NCBI GenBank assembly: GCA_964570955.1
Contig: CAZNBS010000002.1
Span: 1 to 51,838 of the forward strand
Reading direction: 5' to 3'
From: an uncultured Burkholderiales bacterium
GTDB lineage: Bacteria > Pseudomonadota > Gammaproteobacteria > Burkholderiales > SHXO01
DNA length: 51,838 nt
Shown: piece by piece, positions 28,635-42,649 of the stretch
Position numbering within the stretch: position 1 is the first letter of the stretch
Layout of the letters: each line of letters begins with the position of its first letter
The notes under the pieces: generated by a model
The model's database searches: none
Told to the model about the DNA's origin: nothing
Seen by the model: the letters and a program-made list of their open reading frames with translations, nothing else
Translations under genes and position numbers: made by a program

Positions 28635-29885
28635 ATGACCTTCGCGCTGCGAGGCTCGACGCGCGCGAGCGAGAGCACGACAGTGGCGCGCTCGGGCAGA
28701 CCGGCTATCGCGCGAGTGAGCGTGCGCTCCGACGTCCGCGTGGTCACAGCCGAATCCGAGTTTCTAGCGCTTGGGTCCGAGTGGAACGAGCTAGTCGGGA
28801 ACAGCAGACGACCCTCGGTGTTCCTGCGCCACGAGTGGTTTGAAGCGGTGTGGCAGTGGCAAAAATGCGACTCCTCACCCTTCGTCCTGCTCTGGCTGCG
28901 GGACGGCGCACTCGCGGCCGTGCTGCCTCTCGCGATACGGGCCGATGGCTTGCGGAGCGGTGCGGTCCGATCGCTCGAGTTTCTGATGGCCCCCGATTCA
29001 CAGCTTTGTGACGTGATTACCCGCGCCGGCGACGAGAGCGCTGCCGCGAGCGCCTTTGTCGACGCGCTCGTCGAGCATAGGCGTGCCTGGGACGTGTTTC
29101 GCGTCCGCGGAGTACCTCGTGGCGGCGCGGCCGCGGCGCTCGTGGACGCATTTCGCCAACGCGGGTTCGTCACGGACGCACTGGAACCGGACCGGAACCT
29201 CTACATCCCGTTGGGCGGCGGCTGGGAAGACTATTACAAGAACCGAAGCCGAAGCCTCAAGAAGGCAAACAATCTCGCCGTGAACCGCCTGCAGAGGGCC
29301 GGCGAAGTGTCCGTCGAGTGGCTCGCGCCGGGTGCACGAACGCCACCGTCCGATCTGGATCGGACAATAGCGACGGTGATCGACATCTCCGCGCGCAGCT
29401 GGAAGGGCAACATCGCGACCGGTCTCGACAAGCCGGGACCACAGGCGTTCATCCGTCGCCTCTCGGAGCGCGCGAACGACCAGGGCTGGCTATCCGTGTG
29501 GACGGTGCGCCTCAACGGCAGGCCGGTCGCAATGGAATATCAGCTCGTTGCGGACGGCAACGTCTATGCGTTGCGCGGCGACTTCGATGCGGCCTGCGAC
29601 ACGATTTCGCCCGGCTCCTATCTCAGCCGCCAGCTGCTGGAAAGGCTGTTCGGTCAAGGACTTCGGCGTTACTTCCTGGGTCCAGGCGAGAACGAGTACA
29701 AGCTGCGCTGGACGGACCAAGCGGAGCTGTTGGACGACCAGCGGATCTACGGGCGCACGATGCGCGGCCATTGGCTTGCGCTCTGGCGGCGCTGCTTGAA
29801 GCCGTGCCTGCGCGCTGTTCGCGACGGGATTACGCGCCACAAGAACCCGCCCGTGCTTGCGAAACCAGACCAGGAGGATGCATGA
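28635..29885 (+). CDS. FemAB/BioF2(CelD)-like GNAT-fold protein (Acetyltransf_6-type)
   Basis: ATG 28635 gives MTFALRG.... LRHEWFEAVWQW, YYKNRSRSLKKANNLAVNRL, ISPGSYLSRQLLERLF, ENEYKLRWT: the typical CelD/BioF2-like pattern. Confidence 0.8.
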   Translation: MTFALRGSTRASESTTVARSGRPAIARVSVRSDVRVVTAESEFLALGSEWNELVGNSRRPSVFLRHEWFEAVWQWQKCDSSPFVLLWLRDGALAAVLPLAIRADGLRSGAVRSLEFLMAPDSQLCDVITRAGDESAAASAFVDALVEHRRAWDVFRVRGVPRGGAAAALVDAFRQRGFVTDALEPDRNLYIPLGGGWEDYYKNRSRSLKKANNLAVNRLQRAGEVSVEWLAPGARTPPSDLDRTIATVIDISARSWKGNIATGLDKPGPQAFIRRLSERANDQGWLSVWTVRLNGRPVAMEYQLVADGNVYALRGDFDAACDTISPGSYLSRQLLERLFGQGLRRYFLGPGENEYKLRWTDQAELLDDQRIYGRTMRGHWLALWRRCLKPCLRAVRDGITRHKNPPVLAKPDQEDA

Positions 29886-30109
29886 GTCCGTCGCGGCCGA
29901 TCTTGCGGCTTCGCTCGACCGCGGGCGCCGCGTACACGTCCTCGGATACGGGCGTACCGGAGTTGTTATGGTCGGCGTGTTGCGCGGCCGGCCGCGCGCC
30001 TGCTGTCCCACCGACGGCGGGTTTTCCAGGCACTTCTCGGCTTGCCGCACGCTCCAATGCGGCACCTGTCCCACGCCGAATTCTCAACGAGCAGCGGAGG
30101 TCATTTTCC

Positions 30110-30820
30110 ATGCACACGCGATCGCAAGCCAGGCTCCTATCGAAGATTCGTGCACCGCGCGTACGTTGTGTGCAGCTCGTCTTCGCATGCATCCTTGCAA
30201 CCGGGCTCCTTTCGAGCGCGGGGGCGCAATCGTGCGGCAGCCTTGCCAACGACGATTTCGGTCCGTTCGATTATCGCAAGGCTGCACCGGAAAACCTGCA
30301 GGTGGTCGAGTCGTACCATTTCACGCCTTCTGTCGAAAGCCTCAGCCAGGGGACGACTACCTTCATCGGCGGCGATATTGACTACACGCTGCGCGCTTTT
30401 CCGAATCATCCGCGCGCACTGCTCGCGATGGTTCGCCTCGCTGAACGAGAGAAACGCGACCCGCCGGAAGGTGCGCGCTACACCGTCAAGTGCTGGCTCG
30501 ATCGGGCTGCCCAGTTTGCGCCCGACGACGGCCAGGTGCAAATGGTGTACGGATACTTTCTCGCTCGCGCGAGCCGTCCGGACCAGGCTATCAAGAAACT
30601 GGAGCGGGCATATGAACTCATTGGTGAGAATGCGAACGTGCACTACAACCTCGGACTCGTCTACGCGGATCTCAAGGAGTATGACAAAGCGCTCCACCAT
30701 GCCCACGAGGCGTATCGACTTGGATTCTCGCTGCCCGGCTTGCGGAACCGGCTCGCGCAAGCCGGCAAGTGGCGCGAGCCCAACGTGATCGAGCGGGCTA
30801 CCCCGTCCTCCGCGAAGTAA
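30110..30820 (+). CDS. Secreted TPR-like repeat protein, function unknown
   Basis: 236 aa. GCGGAGG RBS 9 nt before the ATG. Signal peptide VQLVFACILATGLLSSAGAQS. C-terminal TPR-like helices (ANVHYNLGLVYADLKEYDKALHHAHEAYRLG). Confidence 0.7.
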   Translation: MHTRSQARLLSKIRAPRVRCVQLVFACILATGLLSSAGAQSCGSLANDDFGPFDYRKAAPENLQVVESYHFTPSVESLSQGTTTFIGGDIDYTLRAFPNHPRALLAMVRLAEREKRDPPEGARYTVKCWLDRAAQFAPDDGQVQMVYGYFLARASRPDQAIKKLERAYELIGENANVHYNLGLVYADLKEYDKALHHAHEAYRLGFSLPGLRNRLAQAGKWREPNVIERATPSSAK

Positions 30821-30986
30821 GCAGAGGCTCGCCCGGTCCGCCGGCTTGTCTATGGCCCGGACGCGTCGGGCGTCGGATATGTGCCGCAGCGCCGCGTCGC
30901 AATCCGTTCGGGCGCGGGTATGAAATCGGCCTGGATGAACTTGTTCTTGCTTCCGGTTGAGCGGATACCAAGATAGGAGTTGTTGC

Positions 30987-32828
30987 TTGGCGGGAATCGG
31001 TGGTTGGTATGAACTCAGTGTGCCGGACGCGACCTCAACCCGCGCCGCAATGGGACGCCGGCTCGGCGCCCTGGACGGCAGCCAGGCGCGGTCGGTCCAC
31101 GGGCGCGGATTTGGACTCGTCGCGGCTGGCGAGGAACGCGTTGCGGCGCTGGTCGGCGAGAACGATATCGCCGTCGCGATCCACGGCCACCCGCGGTGGG
31201 AGCGCGGTTCCGCGGTTCTATCTTCGATCGAGGAGGTCGCGCGTGCGCTTGCCGGCGCGTACCGCCGACGCGGCCCGGACTGCCTGACGGACCTACGCGG
31301 CGACTTTGCTGTCGCCGTCGTGGACGCGGCCCGCGGCGAGCTGTTGCTCGCCGTCGACCGCATGGCGATCAGGGATCTCCTCTACCAACGGACTGGTGAG
31401 GGCGTGATCTTCGGTGTCACCTACGGTGTAATCGCCGAGCACCCGAGTTCCAGCCGCCGCGTCCACCTGCAAGGGATATACGACTACGCGTTCTTCCACA
31501 TGGTGCCCGGTCCGGCGACGATCTACGCAGGCGTGGAGCGCGTGCCTCCCGGCGGGTACGCGAGATTCGCCAACGGCAAGGTCGAGGCAAATGCATACTG
31601 GCGGATGCAGTTCCTCGAATCCGGTCGCGACGGTTTCGGGACCCTGAGAGATCAGCTCCTCGAGTCGCTGCGCAAAGGCGTACGCGCGGGAGCCGACAAC
31701 GTCGAGTGCGGCGCATTCCTGAGCGGCGGAACCGACAGCTCCACCGTCTCGGGACTGCTGGGCGATATCACTGGCCGGCCGGCACGCACGTTCTCCATTG
31801 GATTCGCCGCGAGCGGCTACGACGAAACCGAATACGCGCGAGTCGCCGTGCGCCACTTCAGGACGGATCACCGCGAATACTACGTGACCCCGGAGGACGT
31901 GGTCGCGACCATCCCCCGAATCGCCGCCGCATACGATCAACCGTTCGGAAACGCTTCCGCAGTTCCAACGTACCACTGCGCGCGGCTTGCCGCGGCCAGT
32001 GGCGTCACTCGCATGCTTGCCGGCGACGGTGGTGACGAGCTCTTCGCGGGCAACGCCCGCTATGCGACGCAGCAACTGCTCGCAATGTACGGCGTCTTGC
32101 CGCGCTTGCTGAGACAGGCAGTAATCGAGCCGCTTGCCTTGAGTTTCCGTGCGGATTCTCTGCCGGCGCCGATGCGAAAGATGCGCAGCTATGTCGAGCA
32201 GGCGGCAAAGCCGCTAGCCGAGCGGTACGAGGCCTACAATCTGCTAGAACGGCTGGGTCCGGAGGAAGTTTTCAGCGCGGAGTTCCTGCGAGAGATCGAT
32301 CGGCGGCGGCCGCTTGCGCGGCTGGAAGAGCCGCTCGGTGTGAGCAATGCGCAAAGCCTCATCAACCGACTTCTCGCCATCGATCTGAAGCTCACGCTTG
32401 CGGACAACGATCTGCGCAAGGTCACGCGCATGTGCGAGCTGGCGGGAGTCGACGTGTTCTTCCCGCTGCTGTACGAGGACGTGGTCGAGCTATCCGCTCG
32501 CGTGCCGCCGCGCCTCAAGCTCAAGGGAACACGATTGCGCCATTTCTTCAAGGAAGCGCTTCGAGGTTTTCTGCCAGACGAGATCATTCGGAAGCAGAAG
32601 CATGGATTCGGACTGCCAATCGGCACGTGGCTCGTAAGTCATCCACCGCTGAGGTCGCTTGCGGGAGACGCGCTGGCGACGCTGCGCAAGCGGCAGCTCG
32701 TGCGGTCCGCGTTCATCGATCGTCTCCTGGACGAGCACCTGGCTGCGCACCCCGCATACTACGGGACCATGGTCTGGCTGCTGATGATGCTGGAGATGTG
32801 GATCCAGGCGCACGAGGTATCGCTGTAG
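30987..32828 (+). CDS. Asparagine-synthase-family protein lacking the N-terminal catalytic Cys (adenylating/amidating enzyme)
   Basis: AGGAG RBS 7 nt upstream of TTG 30987 gives M-AGIGGWY where AsnB has M-CGI. The PP-loop FLSGGTDSSTV is retained. Starting at TTG 30957 would also not place a Cys at position 2. Confidence 0.85.
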   Translation: MAGIGGWYELSVPDATSTRAAMGRRLGALDGSQARSVHGRGFGLVAAGEERVAALVGENDIAVAIHGHPRWERGSAVLSSIEEVARALAGAYRRRGPDCLTDLRGDFAVAVVDAARGELLLAVDRMAIRDLLYQRTGEGVIFGVTYGVIAEHPSSSRRVHLQGIYDYAFFHMVPGPATIYAGVERVPPGGYARFANGKVEANAYWRMQFLESGRDGFGTLRDQLLESLRKGVRAGADNVECGAFLSGGTDSSTVSGLLGDITGRPARTFSIGFAASGYDETEYARVAVRHFRTDHREYYVTPEDVVATIPRIAAAYDQPFGNASAVPTYHCARLAAASGVTRMLAGDGGDELFAGNARYATQQLLAMYGVLPRLLRQAVIEPLALSFRADSLPAPMRKMRSYVEQAAKPLAERYEAYNLLERLGPEEVFSAEFLREIDRRRPLARLEEPLGVSNAQSLINRLLAIDLKLTLADNDLRKVTRMCELAGVDVFFPLLYEDVVELSARVPPRLKLKGTRLRHFFKEALRGFLPDEIIRKQKHGFGLPIGTWLVSHPPLRSLAGDALATLRKRQLVRSAFIDRLLDEHLAAHPAYYGTMVWLLMMLEMWIQAHEVSL

Positions 32829-32916
32829 ACCGCGCATGCTCTGGCTCATTCTGCCGAGCGCCCGGGAGCGCAGGCAACGCTGTCGCGATTCGGATGCTGC
32901 GCAGACCGCGCTCGGG

Positions 32917-34245
32917 ATGCGCGGCCTACGCGCGCGCGAGCCGAGCCGTGACGATGGCGCGCGCCGGCCCACAGCCGTACGATGCCCGCCGGGCAGTGGA
33001 TCGCTATCGATCCGCGCGACCGGAACGGCGCTGATCTCGTTCGCGCTATGCCTGCCGCACGCGTTCGCCCACGTGAAGGCAGCCAATCCCAGCGACTACC
33101 ACGGGATTCTCCGCGACTTGAAGCCCGGGGATCGGATCCTGCTCGCGCCGGGGGTCTACACGGAGGGCCTGACGCTGGACGGACTGCGGGGGACCGCGCG
33201 CTCCCCGATAGTGATCGAAGGGCCGGCAGACGGTTACGCGCGGTTTCCTGCCCGAAGCAACCGCAACGTTGTGAGCCTGCGCTCATCCAGCCACATCGTG
33301 ATTCGGAACCTGTTCATCGACCTCGGCGACACGTCCGCAGACGCCGTGAAGGCGGAGCGCTCACGCATCGAACTGCGACACATTGTCCTCGAGAACCTGA
33401 CCATTATCGGGCGCGGCGCGGATCAGCAAAGTGTCGGCATATCCACCAAAGCGCCGGCCACGTCCTGGCACATTCGCGACAATCTCATAATGGGGGTGGG
33501 GACAGGCGTGTACCTCGGCGATTCGGACGGCGGTGCGCCGTTCGTTGGCGGGATCGTCGAGAGAAACGCCATTCTGAACACGCGTGGCTACTCCCTTCAG
33601 ATCAAGCACCAGGTTTCACGACGAGAATCGAGCGGGACTGCTGCGGGCCGTCGTGAGACGATCATCCGCAGCAACTTCTTTTCCAAGGCGGTCGGGGGCA
33701 GCACTGGGCCGGCTGCGCGCCCGAATGTGCTGATCGGGCATCTGCCGCTATCCGGCAAGGACGCGGACGACCGTTACTTGATCTCTGGGAATGTATTCTT
33801 TGCGAATCCTGGCGAGGCGCTCTTCCAGGGGGAGGGAAACATCACCTTGCGCAGTAACCTGCTCTTGAATCCCGCCGGACCCGGGATAAACGTGCTGCCG
33901 CACAACGCGTTCCCGCGTCAAATCGAGATTCTCGGCAATTTCGTGGTCACCGCGGGCGAGCCGATACGCGTGAAAGGCGTCCATCCCGACTTCACTCCGA
34001 GCGTCACACTCAACCGCATCCACCGAATTCGATCCGTGGAGAGCCGAGATGAGGCAAACGGGGCCTCGGCCGACTGGCTCGCCTTCTTGGCGGCGCTCGC
34101 CGAGACCGGCGGCGCCGGGCGGGTAGCCGAACTGCGCGCCGCGCTGCGGGCGGCGTGCGGCGCCGCCCGCCATGGCCATCTACAACCGCCCAAAGAGGCC
34201 CTGATTCCGGTGGAGCACTTTACCTGTACGGGGGCGAGTCGATGA
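32917..34245 (+). CDS. Secreted right-handed parallel beta-helix repeat protein (possible polysaccharide lyase/hydrolase/epimerase)
   Basis: Repeating segments IVIRNLFIDLG / IVLENLTIIGRG / HIRDNLIMGVGTGVYLG / GIVERNAILNTRGYSLQI / ISGNVFF typical of PbH1 repeats. Hydrophobic leader ALISFALCLPHAFA. The start (ATG 32917 or 32836) is uncertain. Confidence 0.65.
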   Translation: MRGLRAREPSRDDGARRPTAVRCPPGSGSLSIRATGTALISFALCLPHAFAHVKAANPSDYHGILRDLKPGDRILLAPGVYTEGLTLDGLRGTARSPIVIEGPADGYARFPARSNRNVVSLRSSSHIVIRNLFIDLGDTSADAVKAERSRIELRHIVLENLTIIGRGADQQSVGISTKAPATSWHIRDNLIMGVGTGVYLGDSDGGAPFVGGIVERNAILNTRGYSLQIKHQVSRRESSGTAAGRRETIIRSNFFSKAVGGSTGPAARPNVLIGHLPLSGKDADDRYLISGNVFFANPGEALFQGEGNITLRSNLLLNPAGPGINVLPHNAFPRQIEILGNFVVTAGEPIRVKGVHPDFTPSVTLNRIHRIRSVESRDEANGASADWLAFLAALAETGGAGRVAELRAALRAACGAARHGHLQPPKEALIPVEHFTCTGASR

Positions 34246-35255
34246 TGCGATCGGATACCTGCATGGAGCCTGACCGCGCTCGAGAGATCCCGGGCACGGC
34301 AGCGGATGATGCGCCCTTGGCGATCGACGCCTGGCGGGAGGCTCGGTTCGAGCTGGTCTACCGCGCCGGTTCGGTGCGGATCTTCGCGCGTCGCTTCAAG
34401 GTGCTACAACTGCAGGGGCATTATCTGGACATGCCGGCGGATCCTGACCAGTTACGGCCCCCGCTGAGCCGACTCGGCGAGAAGGTCGAGGCCCTGGTCG
34501 CGCGGTCTCAACCCATTCGTGAACCCCTTCCCCGTCTCGCGCTGGTCGACGGCGCGCTACGCTTTGTCGTTGCCCAGTACAGCCGGCATCATGCCGACCT
34601 GACGGGATCGTTTGATGGCTACCTGTCGAAATTTGCCGCGAAAACCCGCAACACCCTCAAGCGCAAGGTGCGCAAGTTTCTCGATCGCGGCAGCGGCAGC
34701 TACATGCGCGAGTACAGGCGACCGGAGGAGTTGGCGGATTTCTACCGGCGTGCGCGGTCGGTCTCGGCGCTCACCTACCAGGAACGCCTGTTGGACGCCG
34801 GCCTTCCGGACGAGCCAGCGTATCTCGACGAGCTTGTCCGGCTCGCGCGAGCCGACGCCGTGCGTGCGTACCTGCTGTTCCAGAACGACGAAGCGATCGC
34901 GTATCTATGCTGCCCAATCGTCAACGGCGTGCTTCTCTACGATTATCTCGGCTACGATCCAAAGCACGCCGATCTCTCGCCGGGTACGGTGCTGCAGTAC
35001 CTCGCGTTCCAATCGTTGTTCGCCGAGGGAAAATTCCGCGCCTTTGACTTTACCGAAGGAGACGGCGCGCACAAGCGACTTTTCGGGACGCACGAGACGC
35101 TCTGCGCGGACATCTGCTTCTTTCCCGCCACGACCGGCGTCCGGTTCTGGCTCGGACTGCACATGGGCCTCGAGCGCCTTTCCGAGAAGGCAGTCGCTAT
35201 CCTTGAGCGGCTGGGTCTCAAGGCGGGCCTGAAGAAGCTCGTGCGTCGAGGCTGA
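34242..35255 (+). CDS. FemAB/BioF2(CelD)-like GNAT-fold protein (short paralogue)
   Basis: ATG 34242 overlaps the upstream TGA (ATGA). KTRNTLKRKVRKF, TYQERLLDAGL, LGYDPKHADLSPGTVLQY, GDGAHKRLFGT match the motif order of the paralogues at 36125 and 37406. Confidence 0.75.
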   Translation: MMRSDTCMEPDRAREIPGTAADDAPLAIDAWREARFELVYRAGSVRIFARRFKVLQLQGHYLDMPADPDQLRPPLSRLGEKVEALVARSQPIREPLPRLALVDGALRFVVAQYSRHHADLTGSFDGYLSKFAAKTRNTLKRKVRKFLDRGSGSYMREYRRPEELADFYRRARSVSALTYQERLLDAGLPDEPAYLDELVRLARADAVRAYLLFQNDEAIAYLCCPIVNGVLLYDYLGYDPKHADLSPGTVLQYLAFQSLFAEGKFRAFDFTEGDGAHKRLFGTHETLCADICFFPATTGVRFWLGLHMGLERLSEKAVAILERLGLKAGLKKLVRRG

Positions 35256-35280
35256 CTGCCGCAAGACGCCGGCGAACGGT

Positions 35281-35295
35281 GCTGCGCGTCGCAGC
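35281..35295. terminator. Short GC hairpin between convergent genes (GCTGCG-CGT-CGCAGC)
   Basis: Perfect 6-bp inverted repeat with a 3-nt loop in the 53-nt gap between the stop at 35255 (+) and the stop at 35309 (-). No U-tract. Confidence 0.2.
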
Positions 35296-35308
35296 CAAGC
35301 GGCGCTGG

Positions 35309-36037
35309 CTATCCGTCGACACCGTCCTCGATTTCTGAGCCGTCGCTGTCGTCATCGCCCTCATCGTCGTAGTCGGAGCCCATCCCCTCCTCGTCGTCGC
35401 CATCGTCGGTCGAGCTGTAGCCCGCGGTGTCCCTGCCTTCGTCATCGTCGCCCGAACTGTGGCCGGCGATATCCTCATCGTCGTCGTCGTCACCAGCCGA
35501 GCCGGGGCCTTCTGTGTCCTCCCGGTCAGTATCGACGAGCGAGCCAAGACCCGAGACACCCTCTTCATCTTCATCGTCGTCCGAGCTCGACCCGGCGATG
35601 TTCTGGGAGGGCGCCCCGGCCGAGTCATCGCTCCGGTCGTCATCGGAGTCGGCGGCCGTCTCGCGGTCGTCGGTGCCGCGTTCCGCGATGCCGTAGTCGC
35701 TATCACTGGTCGCGGCAGCGAGCTGCGCGAACCGCGGCCATGATTCACTCTCCGTCGCCGAGCGAGAAGAGCCCTCCGGGCTGGTCTCGATCTGGAAGAA
35801 AGCCTCGGCCGCACTGGCCGGACCGGCACCAGCGGCAACTATCGCTAGCGCGGCGGCAAGCGGCGCTACTCGTCTCAAGCGCAAACGAAGGGTGCGCAGC
35901 GGGTACGGGCGTTCTTCACCCCTCGGCTGCTTGCTCTTGAGTGCAGCTTGCGCCGCCGCAGCGGTACGTGGCTCCTGAGCGTTCTCCATTGCCATTGGAT
36001 GCATTGCCCTCGATGAGCGGATGTGCGCGTCATTCAT
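35309..36037 (-). CDS. Extremely acidic (Asp/Glu/Ser/Gly-rich) low-complexity secreted protein
   Basis: Signal-peptide-like RLRRVAPLAAALAIVAAGAGPASA-AEA, followed by runs such as SSSDDDEDEEG, SAGDDDDDEDIAGH, GDDDEGRD, DYDDEGDDDSDGSE. Same strand as the flippase/GNAT unit upstream. In-frame TTG codons at 35884 and 35878 would give a classical signal peptide, so the start is uncertain. Confidence 0.55.
   Translation of the reverse strand: MNDAHIRSSRAMHPMAMENAQEPRTAAAAQAALKSKQPRGEERPYPLRTLRLRLRRVAPLAAALAIVAAGAGPASAAEAFFQIETSPEGSSRSATESESWPRFAQLAAATSDSDYGIAERGTDDRETAADSDDDRSDDSAGAPSQNIAGSSSDDDEDEEGVSGLGSLVDTDREDTEGPGSAGDDDDDEDIAGHSSGDDDEGRDTAGYSSTDDGDDEEGMGSDYDDEGDDDSDGSEIEDGVDG
35312..35701. 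repeat. Low-complexity GAC/GAT/GAG-biased triplet-periodic tract
   Basis: Four ORFs over 60 aa are open across it in different frames and strands (35309..36037 -, 35218..35838 -, 35427..35696 +, 35459..35743 +). They translate as poly-D/E, T/R-rich or poly-S. Confidence 0.6.
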
Positions 36038-36124
36038 GCTTGTTCCCCGTGCCGTGCCGCCCCTAGCGGAGAGCCGTCAAGGACCGCGGATCCAGGCGGG
36101 TTGCGTGAAGCAGAGTCCGAGCCG

Positions 36125-37387
36125 TCAATTTCCCCGTCGGATCAGTTTCTTGATGCGATCCTTGAGTCCGTGCTTCGCGAGCCAGTTCCCGAGGCCGCGG
36201 GAAAGAGAGTCCGTCCATCTCAACGAGTTTGCGAGAATCGCGCCGGAAGCAGTCTTCGGAATCAGGTAGTAATGACGCTCCGGGGACTTGATGTTCGACG
36301 TGCGCTCCTTGTAAGAGCCGCCGCCATAGAGATTGTCCATGAGGTCGATCGGATCGCCTCGCTTTTCTATGTCCTTGAGTACCTCAAGAAAGAGCACGAT
36401 CCCGATCTCATGCGTTGCGTAGCGCGGGTCGTATCCAGCCGCGGCCATGAAGAAGCAGCCTTTGAACACGTGGCCGTAGTGGAACGCGGCCGGCGCTTCG
36501 TTGATGTACAGAACGTGTCCGAGAAAGTAACCGCGCGCGGCGCTGGCTCGGATCTCGCGCTCGGCCGCGCCGCCGCTCTCGAGTCCCAGGTCAAGCAGGC
36601 GACTCTGGTAGGTTCTCGCAGACACGGGGATCGCGTCCGCCAAGAACCGGTCAATCTCGGCAGGCGTCTGGAACCGACGGACGCGCGAGCGTGTATCCGG
36701 CAGATCCGCAAACCGCTTGAGAGCCCGCCTCAGCTTGCTTCGCTCGCGCGCGGACAGGCTGCCGAGGTAATCCTCAAAGCGGCCATTCCAGGCGACTCTG
36801 CAACGCAGATACTCAGTGCCATGCGGCACCACGTAGAACCGCTGGCGCAGCAAACTGGTTTCGTCGTCGATCAGCGACTGAAGCTCGGAGTCGCGTGGAA
36901 CTCCGCCGATGAACACGACATTCCGGCGCTTGAGAAGTCCCGCAAGGGCGGCGAGGCACTCGTCGGTGGCCGCGCGCGTCTGCTGGCGGCGGGTCAGCGG
37001 GCCCTCGTCCATCGCGAACCGCTCGACCGCCTTGCTATACACGCTGATTTCGCCGATCCAGAACGAGAGACCGCACTCGTGAACGTGGAAGGGGGCGATC
37101 CCCACAATACCTTCTCCGTCGCGATCGATCAGCGTGACGAGGCGGTGACCCGGCGTCGCGCTCACTACGCCAAGCCAGTCGACGTCATGCGCCATTTTCC
37201 TGACGGGAAGAGCCTGCTCGAGCTCGGCTGCGAGCGCTTGGCGCGCGACCGGATCGGTCGCATCGTAGGCGTGCCAATCGGACACTGACTGTCCAGTGCG
37301 CTCGGGCTGGCAAGCCTCGATCGTCGGTCGCGGCGAAGAAGCGCCGGGGCCGAAAAGAGCGGCTTCATTAGCGGGGCGCGTTGCCAC
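36125..37387 (-). CDS. FemAB/BioF2(CelD)-like GNAT-fold protein (tandem paralogue 1)
   Basis: 420 aa. IVGIAPFHV, FLADAIPVSARTYQSRLLDLGL, GYFLGHVLYINEAPAAFHYG, GYDPRYATHEIGIVLFLEVLKDIEKRGDPIDLMD, KERTSNIKSPERHYYL. Confidence 0.8.
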   Translation of the reverse strand: MATRPANEAALFGPGASSPRPTIEACQPERTGQSVSDWHAYDATDPVARQALAAELEQALPVRKMAHDVDWLGVVSATPGHRLVTLIDRDGEGIVGIAPFHVHECGLSFWIGEISVYSKAVERFAMDEGPLTRRQQTRAATDECLAALAGLLKRRNVVFIGGVPRDSELQSLIDDETSLLRQRFYVVPHGTEYLRCRVAWNGRFEDYLGSLSARERSKLRRALKRFADLPDTRSRVRRFQTPAEIDRFLADAIPVSARTYQSRLLDLGLESGGAAEREIRASAARGYFLGHVLYINEAPAAFHYGHVFKGCFFMAAAGYDPRYATHEIGIVLFLEVLKDIEKRGDPIDLMDNLYGGGSYKERTSNIKSPERHYYLIPKTASGAILANSLRWTDSLSRGLGNWLAKHGLKDRIKKLIRRGN

Positions 37388-37405
37388 GGGGCTGCTCCTC
37401 GGATG

Positions 37406-38659
37406 TCAGATGTGGCCGCGCCCGGTCCAATTCCGGACGAGCGTCTTGGTTCGGTCTGCCAGATTCAGACGTCCGAGAAACCGCGTAATCGAGTCGGACG
37501 CGCGATTCATGGATTTCAGTGAGCTGTAGTAGATGGACCCCACGACGGTCCTTCTGAAAAGATAGTAGTTGCGCTCGGCGCTGACGACGTTCGAGGTCCT
37601 TTCTTTGAGTGCATTGCGCCCGTTCATGTAGTCCATCAAAGCGATCCGATCACCGCACTTCTCGATGTCCTTGAGCATCTCGCAGAAGATCACGACGCCA
37701 ATCTGGCTCTTGCTCCAAACAGGATCGTATCCCCCGTCGATCATGAAAAACGTCGATGCATAATTGAAACCATAGTGAAATGCGACGGCCTTGCCATCGA
37801 CATAGAGATTGTGCCCCAGGAAGTAGCCCTTGCGCGCCGCGGCCTTGAGCTTGATCTCCAGCCGATCGTCGTCGGACAGACCAATCCCGAGCTTCTGCTT
37901 CTGATACGTCAGGTCGGAAATCGGGATTGCGTCCTGAAGGAAAGCGCTCACCTCGTCTTCCGCTTGATAGCGGCGCAATTCGAAGGCATTGCCATGACGC
38001 TGCTCGAACTTCTTGAGCGTGCGGCGAAGATCCTTGCGGCTCGTATGGCCTATCGAGGTCAGGTATCGCTCGAAGGTGCCGTCCCACGCGATCTTGTAGC
38101 GCGGACTGACTGGACCCCAGGGCAGCACATGAAAGAATCGATGCAGCGCACTGCCGCGATCCTCCAAGAGCTCGTAGAGGATAGAGTGCTCAGGCACGCA
38201 CTCGCAGTAGACGGCAGAATCGCCCGGGATCAGCTGGCAGAGCGCTTCGAAACAGTTGACCATCGCGTCACGGCTGTTCGGACGCGCGACGATCGGTTCC
38301 AGTTCCAAGTGGATACAGCGAACGCGCTTGCGAAGGATACGGATCGGTCCGAATCCATACTCGAGGTGCGTCGGGTATACCTGGAACGGGGCGATCCCGA
38401 CTATGCGATCGGCCTCTTCGTCGCTAAGGACCAGAAGCTCCTCTCCCGGCACGTCGCGCTTGAGCGCCGCCCACTCCACGTCATGTTCGATGTAGGCAAT
38501 CGGCAGTCCCGTGCGCGCCCGGTCAGCCAGGGTTCTGGCTTGCTCTGCGTCGGCCGGTGTCCGCATCCGCCAGTCGGGGGTCCGGGCGGTTGGCGCGCCT
38601 GCGGACTCTCCCGGCAACGGATGACGCGTGCCATCGGCTAGCGAACGGTCGAGGGACAT
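37406..38659 (-). CDS. FemAB/BioF2(CelD)-like GNAT-fold protein (tandem paralogue 2)
   Basis: ATG at 38659 lies 1 nt after the flippase stop (38661). IVGIAPFQV, FLQDAIPISDLTYQKQKLGIGL, GYFLGHNLYVDGKAVAFHYG, GYDPVWSKSQIGVVIFCEMLKDIEKCGDRIALMD, KERTSNVVSAERNYYL: colinear with 36125..37387. Confidence 0.8.
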   Translation of the reverse strand: MSLDRSLADGTRHPLPGESAGAPTARTPDWRMRTPADAEQARTLADRARTGLPIAYIEHDVEWAALKRDVPGEELLVLSDEEADRIVGIAPFQVYPTHLEYGFGPIRILRKRVRCIHLELEPIVARPNSRDAMVNCFEALCQLIPGDSAVYCECVPEHSILYELLEDRGSALHRFFHVLPWGPVSPRYKIAWDGTFERYLTSIGHTSRKDLRRTLKKFEQRHGNAFELRRYQAEDEVSAFLQDAIPISDLTYQKQKLGIGLSDDDRLEIKLKAAARKGYFLGHNLYVDGKAVAFHYGFNYASTFFMIDGGYDPVWSKSQIGVVIFCEMLKDIEKCGDRIALMDYMNGRNALKERTSNVVSAERNYYLFRRTVVGSIYYSSLKSMNRASDSITRFLGRLNLADRTKTLVRNWTGRGHI

Positions 38660-38660
38660 A

Positions 38661-40133
38661 TCATGCACGGCGAGTCTCCATCCAACGATTGACGCTCGAG
38701 AACACGGTGGCCTCCGCGCCGTGCGGTCGCCCGACGACCAGCCACAACATCGTCGCGAGGCCGAGGTAGCAGAGCACACCGAGCGCCACCGCCGATACGA
38801 GTCCGGGCAGGTTCGCGGCGGGAGCGCCCGGGGCGACCACGTACCAATGCACCAGCAGCGCCATTCCAAGCGCCGCGGCCAACGGGCGCCATAACACCCG
38901 CAAGAGCTCGTACAGCCGGATCTGCAGCTCCCGCATCACCAGCCAGAAGCTGAGCGGAAGAAAAATCGCCCAGGACACCAGGATTGCGACGAGCGCGCCC
39001 TGCAGCCCGTTCCACATCGCAAGTAACGGCAAGAGCACTACGAGGACGGCTCCCTGAACCGACGTTGCGGCAGCATCAATCCACGGCTTGTTGATCGCCA
39101 GAAACACCGCCGAAGAGTTCGAAAGCAGCACGTGCGCAGCTCCCGCCACAGCGAGCGCTTGTACGACGACGATCGCCTCGAGCCACCGCTCCCCCAGTAA
39201 CACGGGTACCGCAAACGGAGCGACTGCTGCGATTCCCAGCGCGGCGGGAAGGCCGAGCGCCGCAATGAGGCCGAGGGCCGCCAGGTAGTGCCTGCGCAAT
39301 GCGTCCTTGTCATGGGAGAGCTTCGCATACCCTGGATAGACCGCCCGGTCGATGGGCGCAACCAGTTCTGTGGTCGGGAGCCGAGCGAGCTCCGCGCCGA
39401 CCGAGTAAACGCCAACGTTCGCTACGCCAGCGATGCGCCCGAGGACGAACGTCGCGAAGTGGAGCGGGATGAAGTCCGCCAGATTGGTGACCACTACCCA
39501 ACGTGAAAAGCCGAAGAGCTCGCGCCAGTGCTTCAAGCAGAACCGCGGTCGGTACGGATGCGCCAAGTAGCTGAGCGCGACACCCACCGCGACACCGGCC
39601 AGAATGCCGAGCATCAGCGCCCAATAGTTGCCCAGCAAGAACGCAAGAGGGATGGTCGTCATGAACATCGCAAGCTTTCTCCCGCCGAGGTAGAGAAACT
39701 CCTTGCGGAAATCGAGTTCCTTTCGAAACGCAACGACGCCGATATTGTTGAATCCGCCGATCACCGCTACCAGCGCCAGCATCGCCATCAGCGGCACAAG
39801 CCGTGGCTCGTTGAAAAACCACGCCGCCGGAAAAGCGATCAAGAGCAGACATAACCCGTAGAGCATCAGAATCAGCAGCTCGAGAGTCCATGCCGTGTCG
39901 TAATGCTCGCGGGTCGCGCGCTGGTCGCGGATAAGCGCCAGATCGAAACTGAAATCCGCGAAGACATCGAGCAGCGCCGAGATCGAGATCGCCATTGCGA
40001 CCAGGCCGAAATCCTCGGGCAGGAGCAAGCGAGCGAGGATCAGCGTGCTGAGGAACCCGAGCCCACGCTCGACGAATCTGGCGAGAAGCATCCATGCGGC
40101 GCCAACCGCGATTCGCTGTCCGAAGTTAGTCAT
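38661..40133 (-). CDS. Wzx-like oligosaccharide flippase (MOP superfamily polysaccharide biosynthesis protein)
   Basis: 490 aa, about 12-14 TM segments. The N-terminus AWMLLARFVERGLGFLSTLILARLLLPEDFGLVAMA is typical of Wzx/RfbX-type proteins. Confidence 0.88.
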   Translation of the reverse strand: MTNFGQRIAVGAAWMLLARFVERGLGFLSTLILARLLLPEDFGLVAMAISISALLDVFADFSFDLALIRDQRATREHYDTAWTLELLILMLYGLCLLLIAFPAAWFFNEPRLVPLMAMLALVAVIGGFNNIGVVAFRKELDFRKEFLYLGGRKLAMFMTTIPLAFLLGNYWALMLGILAGVAVGVALSYLAHPYRPRFCLKHWRELFGFSRWVVVTNLADFIPLHFATFVLGRIAGVANVGVYSVGAELARLPTTELVAPIDRAVYPGYAKLSHDKDALRRHYLAALGLIAALGLPAALGIAAVAPFAVPVLLGERWLEAIVVVQALAVAGAAHVLLSNSSAVFLAINKPWIDAAATSVQGAVLVVLLPLLAMWNGLQGALVAILVSWAIFLPLSFWLVMRELQIRLYELLRVLWRPLAAALGMALLVHWYVVAPGAPAANLPGLVSAVALGVLCYLGLATMLWLVVGRPHGAEATVFSSVNRWMETRRA

Positions 40134-40484
40134 CCGCGGAACGCTGCTGCCATGAGTGCGCGGTGCGCGCGACGAAGACGCGCGAGCGCGTAGCCCCGCG
40201 ACTCCATACCTCCGAAGAACTCGGCGCCTCCAGCCGCTCGACCGCGCGCCGGCGCTTCCCGATTGGGCGTCGATTCAGTCATTCGCCACAACGAAGCACG
40301 CGCCCATCCGCGGATAGAGCGCGCGAGGCAGCGTCGAGAAAGGCCGCAGCCGCTTCATTTCGTCCTCGATTCAGAGCGAGGCGAATACACCTCGGTCTCT
40401 CGCGTGATCAAGCGCTCGACTTTCTCATGGGCCGGCCTACCGTTACGTGAAGCCGTGCACGCGATCTAAAGGATGTGACCAAAA

Positions 40485-40837: not shown

Positions 40838-40858
40838 GTGATCGAGCCACGAATCTGG

Positions 40859-42567: not shown

Positions 42568-42649
42568 GCGGCTTCGTCCCGCACCTCGATTCAAGAGAGT
42601 CTCCGCTTCGGCGGTGAGTCGCAAACGATCCGTGGAGAGAATGCGTCAG

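What the first reader, a model, noticed from the sequence alone, without database searches (positions are those of the whole stretch)
28635..40133. Candidate undescribed module: four FemAB/BioF2-like paralogues, Cys-less AsnB-like enzyme, beta-helix, TPR and acidic proteins, and a flippase
I cannot map this 12.5 kb block onto any described EPS module. It contains four paralogous FemAB/BioF2(CelD)-like GNAT-fold proteins (28635, 34242, 36125, 37406), and a fifth lies in the core at 14921. It also holds an AsnB-family enzyme without the glutaminase nucleophile, a signal-peptide TPR protein, a secreted parallel beta-helix protein, an extremely acidic secreted protein and a Wzx-like flippase. These form two convergent units that meet at 35256..35308. 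FemABX enzymes transfer amino acids from aminoacyl-tRNA onto lipid-linked glycan precursors. This many copies beside a flippase suggests stepwise assembly of an aminoacyl or peptide side chain on an undecaprenyl-linked repeat unit. The AsnB-like and PaaK-like adenylating enzymes could then ligate or amidate the uronic-acid carboxylates supplied by the TviB/TviC-like pair.
Basis: inference. Interest (0 to 1): 0.78.

Follow-up and report, generated by a model that had tools for sequence, protein, structure and literature searches.

The report
Tailoring block of an exosortase-type polysaccharide locus
The block is real, but it is the variable "decorating and export" end of a known kind of slime-polysaccharide gene cluster (the exosortase A / PEP-CTERM type). 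Its one undescribed feature is a widely conserved pair of genes, a FemX-shaped transferase next to an asparagine-synthetase-like enzyme that has lost its glutamine-using half.

Summary
Four PF13480 (Acetyltransf_6) genes, a Cys-less AsnB-like gene, TPR, beta-helix and very acidic secreted proteins and a Wzx flippase lie at about the stated coordinates, in two convergent units.

The claim that the block maps to no described EPS module does not hold. Thirteen XrtA/PEP-CTERM-specific NCBIfam families pass their cut-offs around it. The block sits between the TIGR03097 polymerase/ligase-like gene and the TIGR03013 priming transferase, in the variable part of an exosortase-A-type Wzx/Wzy locus of an uncultured Burkholderiales MAG.

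The block is a composite:
- AT6_1 plus the AsnB-like gene form a conserved pair, adjacent in 40 of 49 informative loci. A TPR gene, a methyltransferase, TIGR03097 and a beta-helix gene often accompany them.
- AT6_2 travels elsewhere with a divergent CE4-like deacetylase.
- The flippase, AT6_4, AT6_3 and acidic-protein unit is rare.

The AT6_1 model (pLDDT 90) is closest to FemX, MprF and other aminoacyl-tRNA transferases, but only narrowly ahead of acetyl-CoA tandem GNATs. The whole AsnB-like orthogroup lacks the glutaminase motifs and keeps the PP-loop.

Best reading: cytoplasmic tailoring of a lipid-linked, amino-sugar and uronic-acid repeat unit by de-N-acetylation, N-acylation or aminoacylation, and amide ligation. 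The donor substrate is unresolved. I rate it a new variant of a known kind, of moderate interest.

The parts
25201..26520 (+). TIGR03097 Wzy_C/O-antigen-ligase-like membrane protein; last gene of the XrtA core and the left anchor of the variable block
   Evidence: NCBIfam TIGR03097 at 451.8 bits against a cut-off of 188. A homologue lies near AT6_1 in 23 related loci.
26562..27566 (+). Divergent CE4-like (polysaccharide deacetylase-like) cytoplasmic protein ('PDAlike'); start uncertain
   Evidence: No Pfam or NCBIfam hit. A profile of 5 orthologues hits only polysaccharide deacetylases in the PDB (3rxz E 0.008, 3qbu 0.14, 6hm9 0.67). D13, H102 and H104 are invariant. Its orthologues lie next to AT6_2 orthologues in all 4 loci that hold both.
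27635..28330 (-). Class I SAM-dependent methyltransferase; start uncertain
   Evidence: Methyltransf_11/25/23 at E 1e-15 to 1e-19. A homologue is present in 30 of 54 related loci, usually next to the TIGR03097-like gene.
28635..29885 (+). AT6_1: tandem-GNAT, FemX-fold transferase (PF13480); the folded part starts near residue 30
   Evidence: PF13480 at 78.9 bits. More than 235 homologues at 44-63% identity. AF2 pLDDT 89.9. Foldseek top hits are FemX, A-PGS/MprF and FemA. Y355 and K356 are invariant in 30 orthologues.
30110..30820 (+). Small TPR protein with a hydrophobic N-terminal segment (probably periplasmic)
   Evidence: TPR_2/TPR_12 and related hits. Kyte-Doolittle 2.33 at residues 20-34. 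A homologue is present in 34 of 54 related loci and directly upstream of AT6_1 in 18.
30987..32828 (+). Glutaminase-dead AsnB-like adenylating enzyme (putative amide ligase)
   Evidence: Asn_synthase at 269.6 bits. TIGR03108 at 299 bits against a cut-off of 817, matching only from residue 100. In the window protein and all 33 orthologues aligned, the Cys1, HRRLSIID, NGEIYN and SDTE motifs are absent and the SGGTDSS PP-loop is kept. It lies directly downstream of AT6_1 in 40 of 49 informative loci.
32836..34245 (+). Secreted right-handed beta-helix protein, polysaccharide-lyase-like
   Evidence: AF2 pLDDT 84.2. Foldseek hits include GH136, PL31/PL6 alginate lyases, chondroitinase B, PL9, RbmB and AlgE4, at E 1e-7 to 1e-3. 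315 homologues, one named a polysaccharide lyase domain protein. Present in 13 related loci.
34242..35255 (+). AT6_2: PF13480 transferase; its start overlaps the beta-helix gene by 4 bp
   Evidence: PF13480 at 73.5 bits. Orthologues at 50-59% identity lie next to PDAlike in L005, L011, L045, L051 and L056.
35309..35995 (-). Very acidic, low-complexity protein with an N-terminal hydrophobic segment
   Evidence: pI 4.1, with 59 D+E in the last 168 residues. A same-type protein occupies the same position in L060 (49 D+E in 144 residues). No family hit.
36125..37387 (-). AT6_3: PF13480 transferase
   Evidence: PF13480 at 58.4 bits. 38% identical to AT6_4. Only 14 word-index homologues. 104 cluster representatives at E<=1e-30 out of 1.84 billion.
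37406..38659 (-). AT6_4: PF13480 transferase, tandem duplicate of AT6_3; starts one base after the flippase stop
   Evidence: PF13480 at 50.6 bits. The start comes from the gene call on the identical contig L063.
38661..40133 (-). Wzx-type MOP flippase
   Evidence: Polysacc_synt_3 at 233.4 bits. NF007773 at 167.6 bits, below its cut-off of 273.
14070..15997 (+). Core pair: TIGR03006 XrtA polysaccharide deacetylase (14070-14924) overlapping by 4 bp the TIGR03019 FemAB-family protein (14921-15997)
   Evidence: 442.4 and 510.9 bits, both above cut-off. The TIGR03019 protein also passes Pfam FemAB (30.9 bits against 24) and hits FemX in the PDB at E 3e-4.
18510..20435 (+). Core TIGR03108 XrtA amidotransferase with an intact MCGI N-terminus
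   Evidence: 1073 bits against a cut-off of 817. The N-terminus and glutaminase motifs are present.
23657..25204 (+). PaaK/CapK-like adenylating enzyme of the core
   Evidence: NCBIfam PaaK-family hits at E 1e-27 to 3e-43, all below their cut-offs; AMP-binding at 35.5 bits. Homologues at 57-60% identity lie beside the module in L026, L035 and L036.
41188..45012 (+). TIGR03013 priming glycosyl-phosphate transferase (41188-42567), TviB-like UDP-GlcNAc 6-dehydrogenase (42614-43930) and TviC-like 4-epimerase (about 43975-45012): the right anchor and the uronic-acid supply
   Evidence: TIGR03013 at 497.6 bits against a cut-off of 393. TviB model at 482.7 bits and TviC model at 426.1 bits, both below their equivalog cut-offs.

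Best explanation
The block is the variable tailoring-and-export region of an exosortase-A (XrtA/PEP-CTERM)-type, Wzx/Wzy-dependent exopolysaccharide locus in an uncultured Burkholderiales bacterium. It is a composite of three parts, not one invented module.

1. **A widely conserved sub-module.** A FemX-fold tandem-GNAT transferase (AT6_1) is coupled to an AsnB-like enzyme that has lost its glutaminase half but keeps the ATP-pyrophosphatase site. A small exported TPR protein, a SAM methyltransferase, the TIGR03097 Wzy-like protein and often a secreted lyase-like beta-helix protein accompany them.
2. **A second Fem-like enzyme (AT6_2).** In other genomes it sits next to a divergent CE4-like deacetylase. 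That deacetylase is also present in the window, 6.7 kb to the left.
3. **A rare, lineage-restricted operon.** Flippase, then two tandemly duplicated Fem-like genes, then a secreted polyanionic protein.

Inferred mechanism:
- On the cytoplasmic face, N-acetylated amino sugars of the undecaprenyl-linked repeat unit are de-N-acetylated by CE4 enzymes. The sugars (GlcNAc, ManNAc, GalNAcA) come from GlmS/GlmU, WecB and the TviB/TviC-like enzymes.
- The freed amines are re-acylated by the Fem-like enzymes. My estimates for the donor are about 35% aminoacyl-tRNA, about 45% an acyl-CoA or acyl-adenylate-derived acyl group, and the rest something else.
- The AsnB-like enzyme adenylates a carboxylate, either a uronate C-6 or the carboxyl of a newly added residue. 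It then joins that carboxylate to an amine other than glutamine-derived ammonia.
- The decorated unit is flipped by Wzx and polymerised by the TIGR03097 protein. In the periplasm it is trimmed or processed by the beta-helix enzyme.

Shown here: gene identities, the fold, the loss of the glutaminase motifs, and the conserved adjacencies. Inferred: the acceptor, the donor, the order of steps and the location.
For: **Locus identity.** Thirteen XrtA-specific NCBIfam families pass their cut-offs on both sides of the block. The published Rubrivivax, Thauera and Rhodoferax clusters have the same core order, followed by a variable part with extra AsnB genes, deacetylases and a flippase (PMC3684757). 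Zoogloea and Aquincola clusters carry two AsnB genes (PMC9012009).

**Composite nature.**
- The AT6_1 and AsnB-like genes are adjacent in 40 of 49 informative loci, from Burkholderiales, Rhodocyclaceae, Sulfuricella, Chromatiales and Legionellales MAGs.
- AT6_2 lies next to PDAlike in 4 of 4 loci that hold both.
- The AT6_3/4 clade is rare.
- The whole block recurs only in L060 and in identical contigs.

**Fold.** AF2 pLDDT is 89.9. Foldseek's top 17 chains are aminoacyl-tRNA transferases, apart from one Bacteroides protein of unknown function at rank 12. An aromatic-Lys motif is invariant in all five window copies and in 30 orthologues.

**Deacetylase and Fem-like coupling.** TIGR03006 and TIGR03019 overlap by 4 bp in the core. 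PDAlike and AT6_2 are adjacent elsewhere. The window holds four CE4-type genes. HfsK, a FemX-like tandem GNAT of the Caulobacter holdfast with two paralogues, was proposed to acylate amines exposed by the deacetylase HfsH (PMC5362036).

**AsnB-like enzyme.** The glutaminase motifs are missing in the window protein and all 33 orthologues aligned, and the PP-loop is intact.

**Beta-helix protein.** Its fold is lyase-like.

**Topology.** Only the TPR, beta-helix and acidic proteins have hydrophobic N-termini.
Against: - No member of PF13480 has a biochemically defined donor or acceptor in anything I could find.
- Foldseek separates aminoacyl-tRNA enzymes (E 7e-13 to 1e-9) from acetyl-CoA tandem GNATs (E 7e-10 to 1e-8) only modestly, with TM-scores around 0.45-0.6 for both.
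- The four block copies match no Fem model by sequence.
- The window has no tRNA gene. No aminoacyl-tRNA synthetase match appeared among the roughly 50 ORFs scanned against Pfam or NCBIfam.
- The CE4 assignment of PDAlike is weak (best E 0.008).
- The exosortase, PEP-CTERM proteins and PrsK/PrsR are not on this contig.
- The organism is uncultured, so the polysaccharide's chemistry is unknown.
Confidence: 0.6

Rival explanations
1. The four or five Fem-like enzymes use aminoacyl-tRNAs one after another to build an amino-acid or short peptide side chain on the undecaprenyl-linked repeat unit. The AsnB-like and PaaK-like enzymes amidate or ligate the uronate carboxylates.
For: - The nearest structures are all aminoacyl-tRNA transferases: FemX, FemA, MprF and Sba18/Sbb17.
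- The TIGR03019 copy passes Pfam FemAB and hits FemX and the aminoacyl-tRNA-dependent peptide synthases by sequence.
- The aromatic-Lys motif is conserved.
- Several copies sit in one locus beside a flippase.
- In some relatives, ATP-grasp 'sugar-transfer-associated' ligases follow the AsnB-like gene, which suggests peptide-type chemistry.
Against: - The copies have different phyletic distributions, and most related loci carry only one of them, so an obligatory stepwise series is unlikely.
- There is no tRNA gene, and no aminoacyl-tRNA synthetase match among the ORFs scanned.
- The structural margin over acyl-CoA GNATs is small.
- The model shows no FemA/B-type helical arm.
Confidence: 0.25
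2. The PF13480 proteins are ordinary acyl-CoA-dependent N-acyltransferases, using acetyl or another short acyl group. They simply re-acylate or differentially acylate amino sugars. The AsnB-like enzyme amidates uronates with free ammonia. In that case the block is routine EPS tailoring.
For: - Pfam places the family in the GNAT clan under the name 'Acetyltransferase (GNAT) domain'. PGAP names the proteins 'GNAT family N-acetyltransferase' and JGI names them 'CelD/BcsL family acetyltransferase'.
- Acetyl-CoA tandem GNATs (VipF, Eis, the clavulanate tandem GNAT) are also significant structural matches.
- A PaaK/CapK-like adenylating enzyme that could activate an acyl group is part of the conserved neighbourhood.
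- Relatives carry other acyltransferases nearby.
Against: - The names are homology labels with no experiment behind them.
- The best structural neighbours are not CoA-dependent enzymes.
- De-N-acetylating and then re-N-acetylating would be futile, so a different acyl group is implied.
- Conserved coupling to a glutaminase-dead AsnB-like enzyme is not explained by simple acetylation.
Confidence: 0.35
3. The Fem-like enzymes install amino-terminated stems on the polysaccharide, and these stems serve as the nucleophile for exosortase A. PEP-CTERM proteins would thus become covalently joined to the EPS, as sortase A uses the FemXAB-built pentaglycine bridge.
For: - A Fem-family gene (TIGR03019) is a core XrtA marker.
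- In Aquincola, a PEP-CTERM protein converts released EPS into cell-bound EPS by an unknown mechanism (PMC9850573).
- The HfsK authors raised the same sortase/Fem analogy for anchoring the holdfast (PMC5362036).
- PEP-CTERM genes sit beside the module in L001 and L003.
Against: - This is purely an analogy.
- No exosortase or PEP-CTERM gene lies on this contig.
- The acceptor of exosortase is unknown.
- The block copies are not the XrtA-specific TIGR03019 family.
Confidence: 0.1

Closest known systems
XrtA/PEP-CTERM (exosortase A) exopolysaccharide loci: Haft et al. 2006 (PMC1569441); Rubrivivax gelatinosus psc1, Thauera MZ1T and Rhodoferax (PMC3684757); Zoogloea/Aquincola 'zooglan'-type cluster (PMC9012009, PMC9850573; epsSMASH preprint 10.64898/2025.12.21.693542)
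   Same: The core gene set and order match: export protein, chain-length determinant, Tyr kinase, outer-membrane protein, ATPase, WecB, deacetylase, FemAB-family protein, GT4s, AsnB amidotransferase, CapK-like enzyme and Wzy-like protein. A variable region follows, with extra AsnB genes, deacetylases and a flippase, and a TIGR03013 priming transferase.
   Different: The contig has no exosortase, EpsI, PrsK/R, PrsT or PEP-CTERM gene. The variable region carries four extra PF13480 genes that match none of the 18,950 NCBIfam models, including TIGR03019. I found no mention of the conserved AT6_1/glutaminase-dead AsnB pair in those papers.
HfsK and its paralogues CC2278 and CC1244 of the Caulobacter crescentus holdfast (PMC5362036)
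   Same: Both are cytoplasmic tandem-GNAT proteins whose closest solved structure is FemX. Several paralogues act on one adhesive polysaccharide. Both are linked genetically or functionally to a polysaccharide deacetylase. Both have a C-terminal basic extension. The donor and acceptor are unknown in both.
   Different: HfsK genes are scattered, not clustered. c-di-GMP binding is not tested here. The holdfast system has no exosortase and no AsnB partner.
FemX/FemA/FemB/MurM and the MprF C-terminal domain (aminoacyl-tRNA-dependent transferases)
   Same: The tandem-GNAT fold is the same. These are the best Foldseek matches (E 7e-13 to 1e-9). An aromatic-Lys motif is conserved near the C-terminus of the second GNAT domain.
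   Different: The four block copies give no significant sequence match to any Fem or MprF model. They have no FemA/B helical arm. The context is exopolysaccharide, not peptidoglycan or lipid. The donor is untested.
AsnB-family enzymes that do not use glutamine-derived ammonia (beta-lactam synthetase, carbapenam synthetase, lasso-peptide cyclases), and glutamine-dependent cell-surface amidotransferases (the 'wbpS' label given to the Rubrivivax AsnB genes in PMC3684757; AsnH, LtsA and WbpS biochemistry from my own knowledge)
   Same: The Asn_synthase PP-loop domain adenylates a carboxylate and forms an amide. NCBIfam shows weak similarity to lasso-peptide and macrolactam cyclases.
   Different: The scores are far below the cut-offs of those families. 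Here the degenerate N-domain is retained, with a conserved MSG[IL]CGW start. The gene is coupled to a Fem-fold gene inside a polysaccharide locus. The substrate is unknown.

Membership tests
XrtA/PEP-CTERM exopolysaccharide locus | Several XrtA-specific marker families score above NCBIfam's curated cut-offs in one neighbourhood | tested here: met
   TIGR03027, 03007, 03018, 03016, 03015, 03006, 03019, 03087, 03088, 03108, 04063, 03097 and 03013 are all above cut-off.
XrtA/PEP-CTERM exopolysaccharide locus | An exosortase A (XrtA/EpsH) gene, usually with EpsI, in the locus | tested here: not met
   No exosortase or EpsI hit among the candidate window ORFs scanned (those of at least 120 aa with high third-position GC). 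The usual slot holds a TIGR03088 glycosyltransferase. The gene may lie elsewhere in the genome, since the window is a whole 51.8-kb contig.
XrtA/PEP-CTERM exopolysaccharide locus | PEP-CTERM substrate proteins and the PrsK/PrsR regulators in the genome | tested here: inconclusive
   None in the window. They are present next to the homologous module in L001 and L003. The rest of the genome is not available.
TIGR03019 (FemAB family, XrtA-associated) | Score above the 260-bit cut-off | tested here: not met
   This row concerns the four block copies, which gave no NCBIfam hit at E 1e-3. The core copy at 14921-15997 does pass, at 510.9 bits.
Pfam PF13480 Acetyltransf_6 (CelD/BcsL, COG5653) | Domain score above the gathering threshold of 22 bits | tested here: met
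   78.9, 73.5, 58.4 and 50.6 bits for the four block copies, and 52.8 bits for the core copy.
FemABX aminoacyl-tRNA transferases | Tandem-GNAT fold | tested here: met
   AF2 model of AT6_1 with pLDDT 89.9. The best PDB matches are FemX 1ne9 (E 7e-13, target-normalised TM-score 0.57), FemA 1lrz and FemX 6snr. Only AT6_1 was modelled.
FemABX aminoacyl-tRNA transferases | Sequence membership (Pfam FemAB PF02388, NCBIfam FemX) | tested here: not met
   No FemAB, FemAB_like or FemX hit for the four block copies. The PDB sequence and profile searches found nothing. The core TIGR03019 copy does pass PF02388 (30.9 bits against 24).
FemABX aminoacyl-tRNA transferases | Catalytic lysine of the second GNAT domain (FemX Lys305, recalled from my own knowledge) | tested here: inconclusive
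   An aromatic-Lys pair is invariant in the five window copies and in 30 AT6_1 orthologues. It lies about 12 residues after the last FemX-aligned position of the TIGR03019 copy. I obtained no residue-level structural superposition.
FemABX aminoacyl-tRNA transferases | Aminoacyl-tRNA as the donor | not testable with these tools
   This needs enzymology. There is no tRNA gene and no aminoacyl-tRNA synthetase match among the ORFs scanned. Fem enzymes normally use housekeeping tRNAs, so this says little either way.
Glutamine-dependent asparagine synthetase / TIGR03108 XrtA amidotransferase | N-terminal nucleophile Cys and the class-II glutaminase motifs | tested here: not met
   The N-terminus is MAGIGGW. 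The HRRLSIID, NGEIYN and SDTE equivalents are absent in the window protein and in all 33 orthologues aligned.
Glutamine-dependent asparagine synthetase / TIGR03108 XrtA amidotransferase | Asn_synthase domain with the SGGxDS PP-loop | tested here: met
   PF00733 at 269.6 bits. SGGTDSS is conserved.
Glutamine-dependent asparagine synthetase / TIGR03108 XrtA amidotransferase | Score above the family cut-off | tested here: not met
   TIGR03108 at 299 bits against 817; TIGR01536 at 218.7 bits against 267.
Beta-helix polysaccharide lyases (PL6, PL9, PL31 and RbmB-like) | Right-handed parallel beta-helix fold | tested here: met
   AF2 pLDDT 84.2. Foldseek matches to PL31, PL6, PL9 and RbmB at E 5e-7 to 1e-4.
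Beta-helix polysaccharide lyases (PL6, PL9, PL31 and RbmB-like) | Catalytic Lys/Arg and Ca2+-binding residues of a specific PL family | not tested
   No residue-level superposition was available. GH136 and the AlgE epimerases match about as well, so lyase, hydrolase and epimerase all remain open.
CE4 polysaccharide deacetylases (for the gene at 26562-27566) | Pfam Polysacc_deac_1 match and the Asp-His-His metal triad | tested here: inconclusive
   No Pfam hit. The profile's only PDB hits are three polysaccharide deacetylases, at E 0.008-0.67. D13, H102 and H104 are invariant in 5 orthologues.

The most novel reading that the evidence does not exclude
The Fem-fold enzymes of XrtA loci use aminoacyl-tRNA to put amino-terminated residues on the polysaccharide. 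This would include both the conserved AT6_1/glutaminase-dead AsnB pair found here and the core TIGR03019 protein. The added residues would be the acceptor onto which exosortase A transfers cleaved PEP-CTERM proteins. That would make the system a Gram-negative, polysaccharide-directed counterpart of sortase with the FemXAB pentaglycine bridge. It would also explain how PEP-CTERM proteins turn released EPS into cell-bound floc matrix.
Probability: 0.1. Interest if true: 0.85.

Novelty: new variant of a known kind. Interest (0 to 1): 0.45.

Why it matters
Exosortase-type EPS loci underlie floc and granule formation in wastewater bacteria and are common in soil and freshwater Proteobacteria. Two questions have stayed open since the system was described in 2006: what the Fem-like and AsnB-like genes do, and how PEP-CTERM proteins become attached to the polysaccharide.

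This analysis identifies a compact, widely conserved pair: a FemX-fold transferase and a glutaminase-dead AsnB-like enzyme. It has dozens of orthologous examples and a confident structural model. That gives biochemists a defined two-protein target for testing tRNA-dependent against CoA-dependent glycan modification.

If the donor is aminoacyl-tRNA, tRNA-dependent aminoacylation would extend from peptidoglycan and lipids to exopolysaccharides. If the donor is an acyl-CoA, the block is routine tailoring.

Tried and rejected
- **PDB sequence and profile searches with AT6_1.** No meaningful hit, so the Fem relationship rests on fold and on Pfam only.
- **hhalign of the AT6_1 profile against the TIGR03019 copy.** Probability 21%, covering the N-terminal 68 columns only. 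It is too weak to carry the catalytic-residue argument.
- **Isoelectric points as a proxy for tRNA binding.** All Fem-like copies are basic (pI 8.4-9.6), but so are almost all proteins of the locus. Uninformative.
- **tRNA scan and Rfam scan of the window.** Nothing found.
- **Sigma-70 promoter and terminator scan of the block, and a sigma-54 consensus search.** Nothing above chance. Regulation by RpoN, as in Aquincola, could not be addressed.
- **Search for exosortase or PEP-CTERM genes in the unassigned ORFs and in the 1-kb gap upstream of the priming transferase.** None. ORF 40447-41169 has poor coding statistics and no family.
- **Literature search for PF13480/Acetyltransf_6.** Only two incidental mentions. 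No characterised member was found.
- **The idea that the AsnB-like Cys at position 5 (MSGICGW) is a processed N-terminal nucleophile.** Rejected. The Cys is replaced by G, Y, F, V or L in several orthologues, and the other glutaminase motifs are missing throughout.
- **The idea that the four copies are recent paralogues.** Rejected, except for AT6_3 and AT6_4.

Full report
**1. What is in the sequence**

The window has 62-70% G+C. I chose genes by third-position GC and ORF structure.

- **Fem-like genes.** Four ORFs in the block hit Pfam PF13480 (Acetyltransf_6) above the gathering score: AT6_1 28635-29885(+), AT6_2 34242-35255(+), AT6_3 36125-37387(-) and AT6_4 37406-38659(-).
- **AsnB-like gene.** 30987-32828 hits Asn_synthase at 269.6 bits. 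Its N-terminal 100 residues match no glutaminase model well.
- **Exported proteins.** 30110-30820 is a small TPR protein and 32836-34245 a beta-helix protein. 35309-35995(-) is a D/E-rich protein with pI 4.1.
- **Flippase.** 38661-40133(-) is a Wzx-type MOP flippase.
- **Topology.** Only the TPR, beta-helix and acidic proteins carry a hydrophobic N-terminal segment.
- **Layout.** The two units converge across a 53-bp spacer. Several genes abut or overlap: beta-helix and AT6_2 overlap by 4 bp, and flippase and AT6_4 are 1 bp apart.

One is a SAM methyltransferase on the minus strand (27635 to about 28330). The other is a protein at about 26562-27566 that has no Pfam hit. A profile of this protein's orthologues finds only polysaccharide deacetylases in the PDB, weakly.

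The four Fem-like proteins are distant relatives, not recent copies. The exception is AT6_3 and AT6_4, at 38% identity.

**2. What surrounds it**

NCBIfam places 13 flanking genes in XrtA/PEP-CTERM-specific families, all above curated cut-offs:
- export protein TIGR03027
- chain-length determinant TIGR03007
- tyrosine kinase TIGR03018
- outer-membrane protein TIGR03016
- ATPase TIGR03015
- deacetylase TIGR03006
- FemAB-family protein TIGR03019
- glycosyltransferases TIGR03087, TIGR03088 and TIGR04063
- amidotransferase TIGR03108
- Wzy/ligase-like protein TIGR03097
- priming transferase TIGR03013

GlmU, GlmS, WecB and the TviB/TviC-like enzymes supply amino sugars and N-acetyl-hexosaminuronic acid. 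The block lies exactly between TIGR03097 and TIGR03013.

So the window is an exosortase-A-type Wzx/Wzy EPS locus, and the finding is its variable region. Published clusters of this type have the same core order, then a variable part with further asparagine synthase genes, deacetylases and a flippase. These include Rubrivivax gelatinosus psc1 with its Thauera and Rhodoferax counterparts (PMC3684757) and the Zoogloea/Aquincola cluster with 'two asparagine synthetase genes' (PMC9012009).

Oddly, the contig has no exosortase, EpsI, PrsK/R, PrsT or PEP-CTERM gene.

**3. Source and annotation**

Exact-match look-ups show the window is a whole contig of an uncultured Burkholderiales MAG. In a close relative, NCBI names the Fem-like proteins only 'GNAT family N-acetyltransferase'. 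JGI calls AT6_1 homologues 'CelD/BcsL family acetyltransferase'.

**4. Comparative genomics**

AT6_1 has more than 235 homologues at 44-63% identity. A scan of one genome per species returned 56 loci, nearly all MAGs. They come from Burkholderiales/Casimicrobiaceae, Rhodocyclaceae, Sulfuricella and Chromatiales, with a few from Legionellales.

tblastn with the window's proteins gave these counts:

| Feature near AT6_1 | Loci |
|---|---|
| AsnB-like gene directly downstream, same strand | 40 of 49 with enough flank (4-bp overlap in L001) |
| TPR gene present | 34 (directly upstream in 18) |
| Methyltransferase | 30 |
| TIGR03097-like gene | 23 |
| Beta-helix gene | 13 |

- In L026, L035 and L036 the module sits beside the CapK/PaaK-like gene, as it does in the window.
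- PEP-CTERM genes, PrsK/R-like genes and the priming transferase flank the module in L001 and L003.
- AT6_2 orthologues are always next to orthologues of the CE4-like gene (4 of 4).
- AT6_3/4 are rare: 14 word-index hits and 104 cluster representatives at E<=1e-30 among 1.84 billion.
- The complete block, in the same order, was found only in two contigs identical to the window and in one distinct metagenome contig, L060, at 62-75% amino-acid identity.
- Most related loci hold one PF13480 gene within 10 kb either side. A minority hold three to five.

The block is thus a composite: a widespread sub-module plus lineage-specific additions.

**5. The Fem-like enzymes**

- AF2 on 30 orthologues gave a confident tandem-GNAT model of AT6_1 (pLDDT 89.9, pTM 0.84).
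- Foldseek against the PDB ranks these first, at E 7e-13 to 1e-9: W. viridescens FemX, alanyl- and lysyl-phosphatidylglycerol synthase/MprF domains, S. aureus FemA and FemX, and the aminoacyl-tRNA-dependent peptide synthases Sba18/Sbb17.
- Acetyl-CoA tandem GNATs (VipF, Eis, the clavulanate protein) follow at E 7e-10 to 1e-8, with similar TM-scores.
- The core TIGR03019 copy passes Pfam FemAB. It hits FemX and Sbb17/Sba18 by sequence at E 3e-4 to 7e-4. The four block copies do not.
- An aromatic-Lys pair near the end of the second GNAT domain is invariant in all five copies and in the orthologues. I recall that FemX Lys305 is essential, but I could not verify that the two positions correspond.

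The fold says 'Fem/MprF-like'. The donor remains open.

**6. The AsnB-like enzyme**

An alignment of 33 orthologues with the window's genuine TIGR03108 enzyme shows the whole orthogroup lacks four things:
- the N-terminal nucleophile Cys in register
- the Arg-containing HRRLSIID motif
- the NGEIYN motif, which is deleted
- the SDTE motif

The SGGTDSS PP-loop is kept. Most members start MSG[IL]CGW, but that Cys is G, Y, F, V or L in several.

This is an adenylating amide-bond enzyme that cannot draw ammonia from glutamine. Its tight coupling to AT6_1 suggests that the two act on the same intermediate.

**7. Other parts**

The beta-helix model (pLDDT 84) resembles alginate, chondroitin and pectate lyases, the Vibrio VPS lyase RbmB, GH136 enzymes and AlgE epimerases. 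That fits a periplasmic enzyme processing a uronic-acid polymer.

The acidic protein is conserved in type and position in L060. Its role is unknown.

**8. Mechanism proposed**

- Deacetylase and Fem-like genes are paired three times over: TIGR03006 with TIGR03019 in the core (overlapping by 4 bp), CE4-like with AT6_2 in relatives, and four CE4-type genes in the window as a whole.
- The simplest reading is de-N-acetylation of amino sugars followed by re-N-acylation with something other than acetate, on the cytoplasmic side before the Wzx step. The HfsK authors proposed the same for HfsH and HfsK of the Caulobacter holdfast, where three FemX-like paralogues contribute (PMC5362036).
- The AsnB-like enzyme would then make a further amide bond, at a uronate or at an added residue.
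- My estimates for the donor are about 35% aminoacyl-tRNA and about 45% acyl-CoA or another activated acyl group.

**9. Novelty and verdict**

The system is known. Fem-family and AsnB-family genes in it are known but uncharacterised. New here are three observations:
- the conserved pair of a Fem-fold transferase and a glutaminase-dead AsnB-like enzyme
- the observation that both belong to orthogroups with no curated model
- the unusual accumulation of Fem-like genes in this lineage

I rate this a new variant of a known kind, of moderate interest. The most novel reading still open is that these enzymes build the acceptor for exosortase-mediated attachment of PEP-CTERM proteins to EPS. That attachment step is explicitly unresolved in PMC9850573.

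Noticed in passing
window 1-51838, especially 17289-18510: Thirteen XrtA-specific marker families are present, but the contig has no exosortase XrtA, EpsI, PrsK/PrsR, PrsT or PEP-CTERM gene. The place between the TIGR03087 glycosyltransferase and the TIGR03108 amidotransferase, where the exosortase sits in published loci, holds a TIGR03088 glycosyltransferase (17346-18482).
   Followed up: partly
window 40134-41187: A 1054-bp gap lies between the divergent flippase and priming-transferase genes. Gene callers call a 240-aa ORF there (40447-41169), but it has low third-position GC (0.59), pI 11.6 and no family hit. In relatives L001 and L003, PEP-CTERM protein genes occupy this position. It could be a decayed gene or a regulatory region.
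   Followed up: partly
window 34242-35255, 36125-37387 and 37406-38659 (C-termini): AT6_2 and AT6_3 end in KKL[VI]RRG, and AT6_4 ends in a similar basic tail. HfsK of Caulobacter needs a C-terminal extension with two arginines for membrane association, activity and c-di-GMP binding (PMC5362036). This hints at a shared regulatory tail.
   Followed up: no
L062 504-1763: A 54%-identical homologue of AT6_3 lies directly upstream of the cell-division and peptidoglycan cluster mraZ-rsmH-ftsL-ftsI-murE-murF-mraY-murD-ftsW. The contig starts just before it, so the upstream context is unknown.
   Followed up: no
L001 13026-15367 (same as L055): Two ATPgrasp_ST ('sugar-transfer-associated ATP-grasp') genes follow the AsnB-like gene. 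That adds further amide or peptide ligases to the same module in some genomes.
   Followed up: no
window 30987-31010 and orthologues in L006-L059: The AsnB-like orthogroup has a conserved N-terminus MSG[IL]CGW, with Cys at position 5 instead of the canonical MCGI. The Cys is replaced in the window (G) and in several other loci. The meaning of this conserved start in a glutaminase-dead domain is unexplained.
   Followed up: partly
window 3026-4054, 14070-14924, 21690-22652 and 26562-27566: One EPS locus holds four deacetylase-type genes: two Polysacc_deac_1, one TIGR03006 and one divergent CE4-like. That suggests extensive de-N-acetylation of the polymer or its precursors.
   Followed up: partly
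window 4754-5446 and 5595-6323: Two unassigned ORFs lie upstream of the export gene. One is a small protein with a GNAT-like RGRGLRRLL motif and no family hit. The other is a UPF0489-domain protein.
   Followed up: no
L051, L056 and L058, around 9700-11300: In several long-read MAG loci the AT6_1 gene is split into two to four overlapping ORF fragments. These are probably assembly indels, not pseudogenes, and they inflate naive counts of PF13480 genes per locus.
   Followed up: no
window 46673-49790 (-): MlaD/PqiB-like, MlaF-like and MlaE-like genes with very high third-position GC (0.90-0.94) follow the EPS locus. A lytic transglycosylase-like gene at 44810-45931 closes the EPS locus.
   Followed up: no
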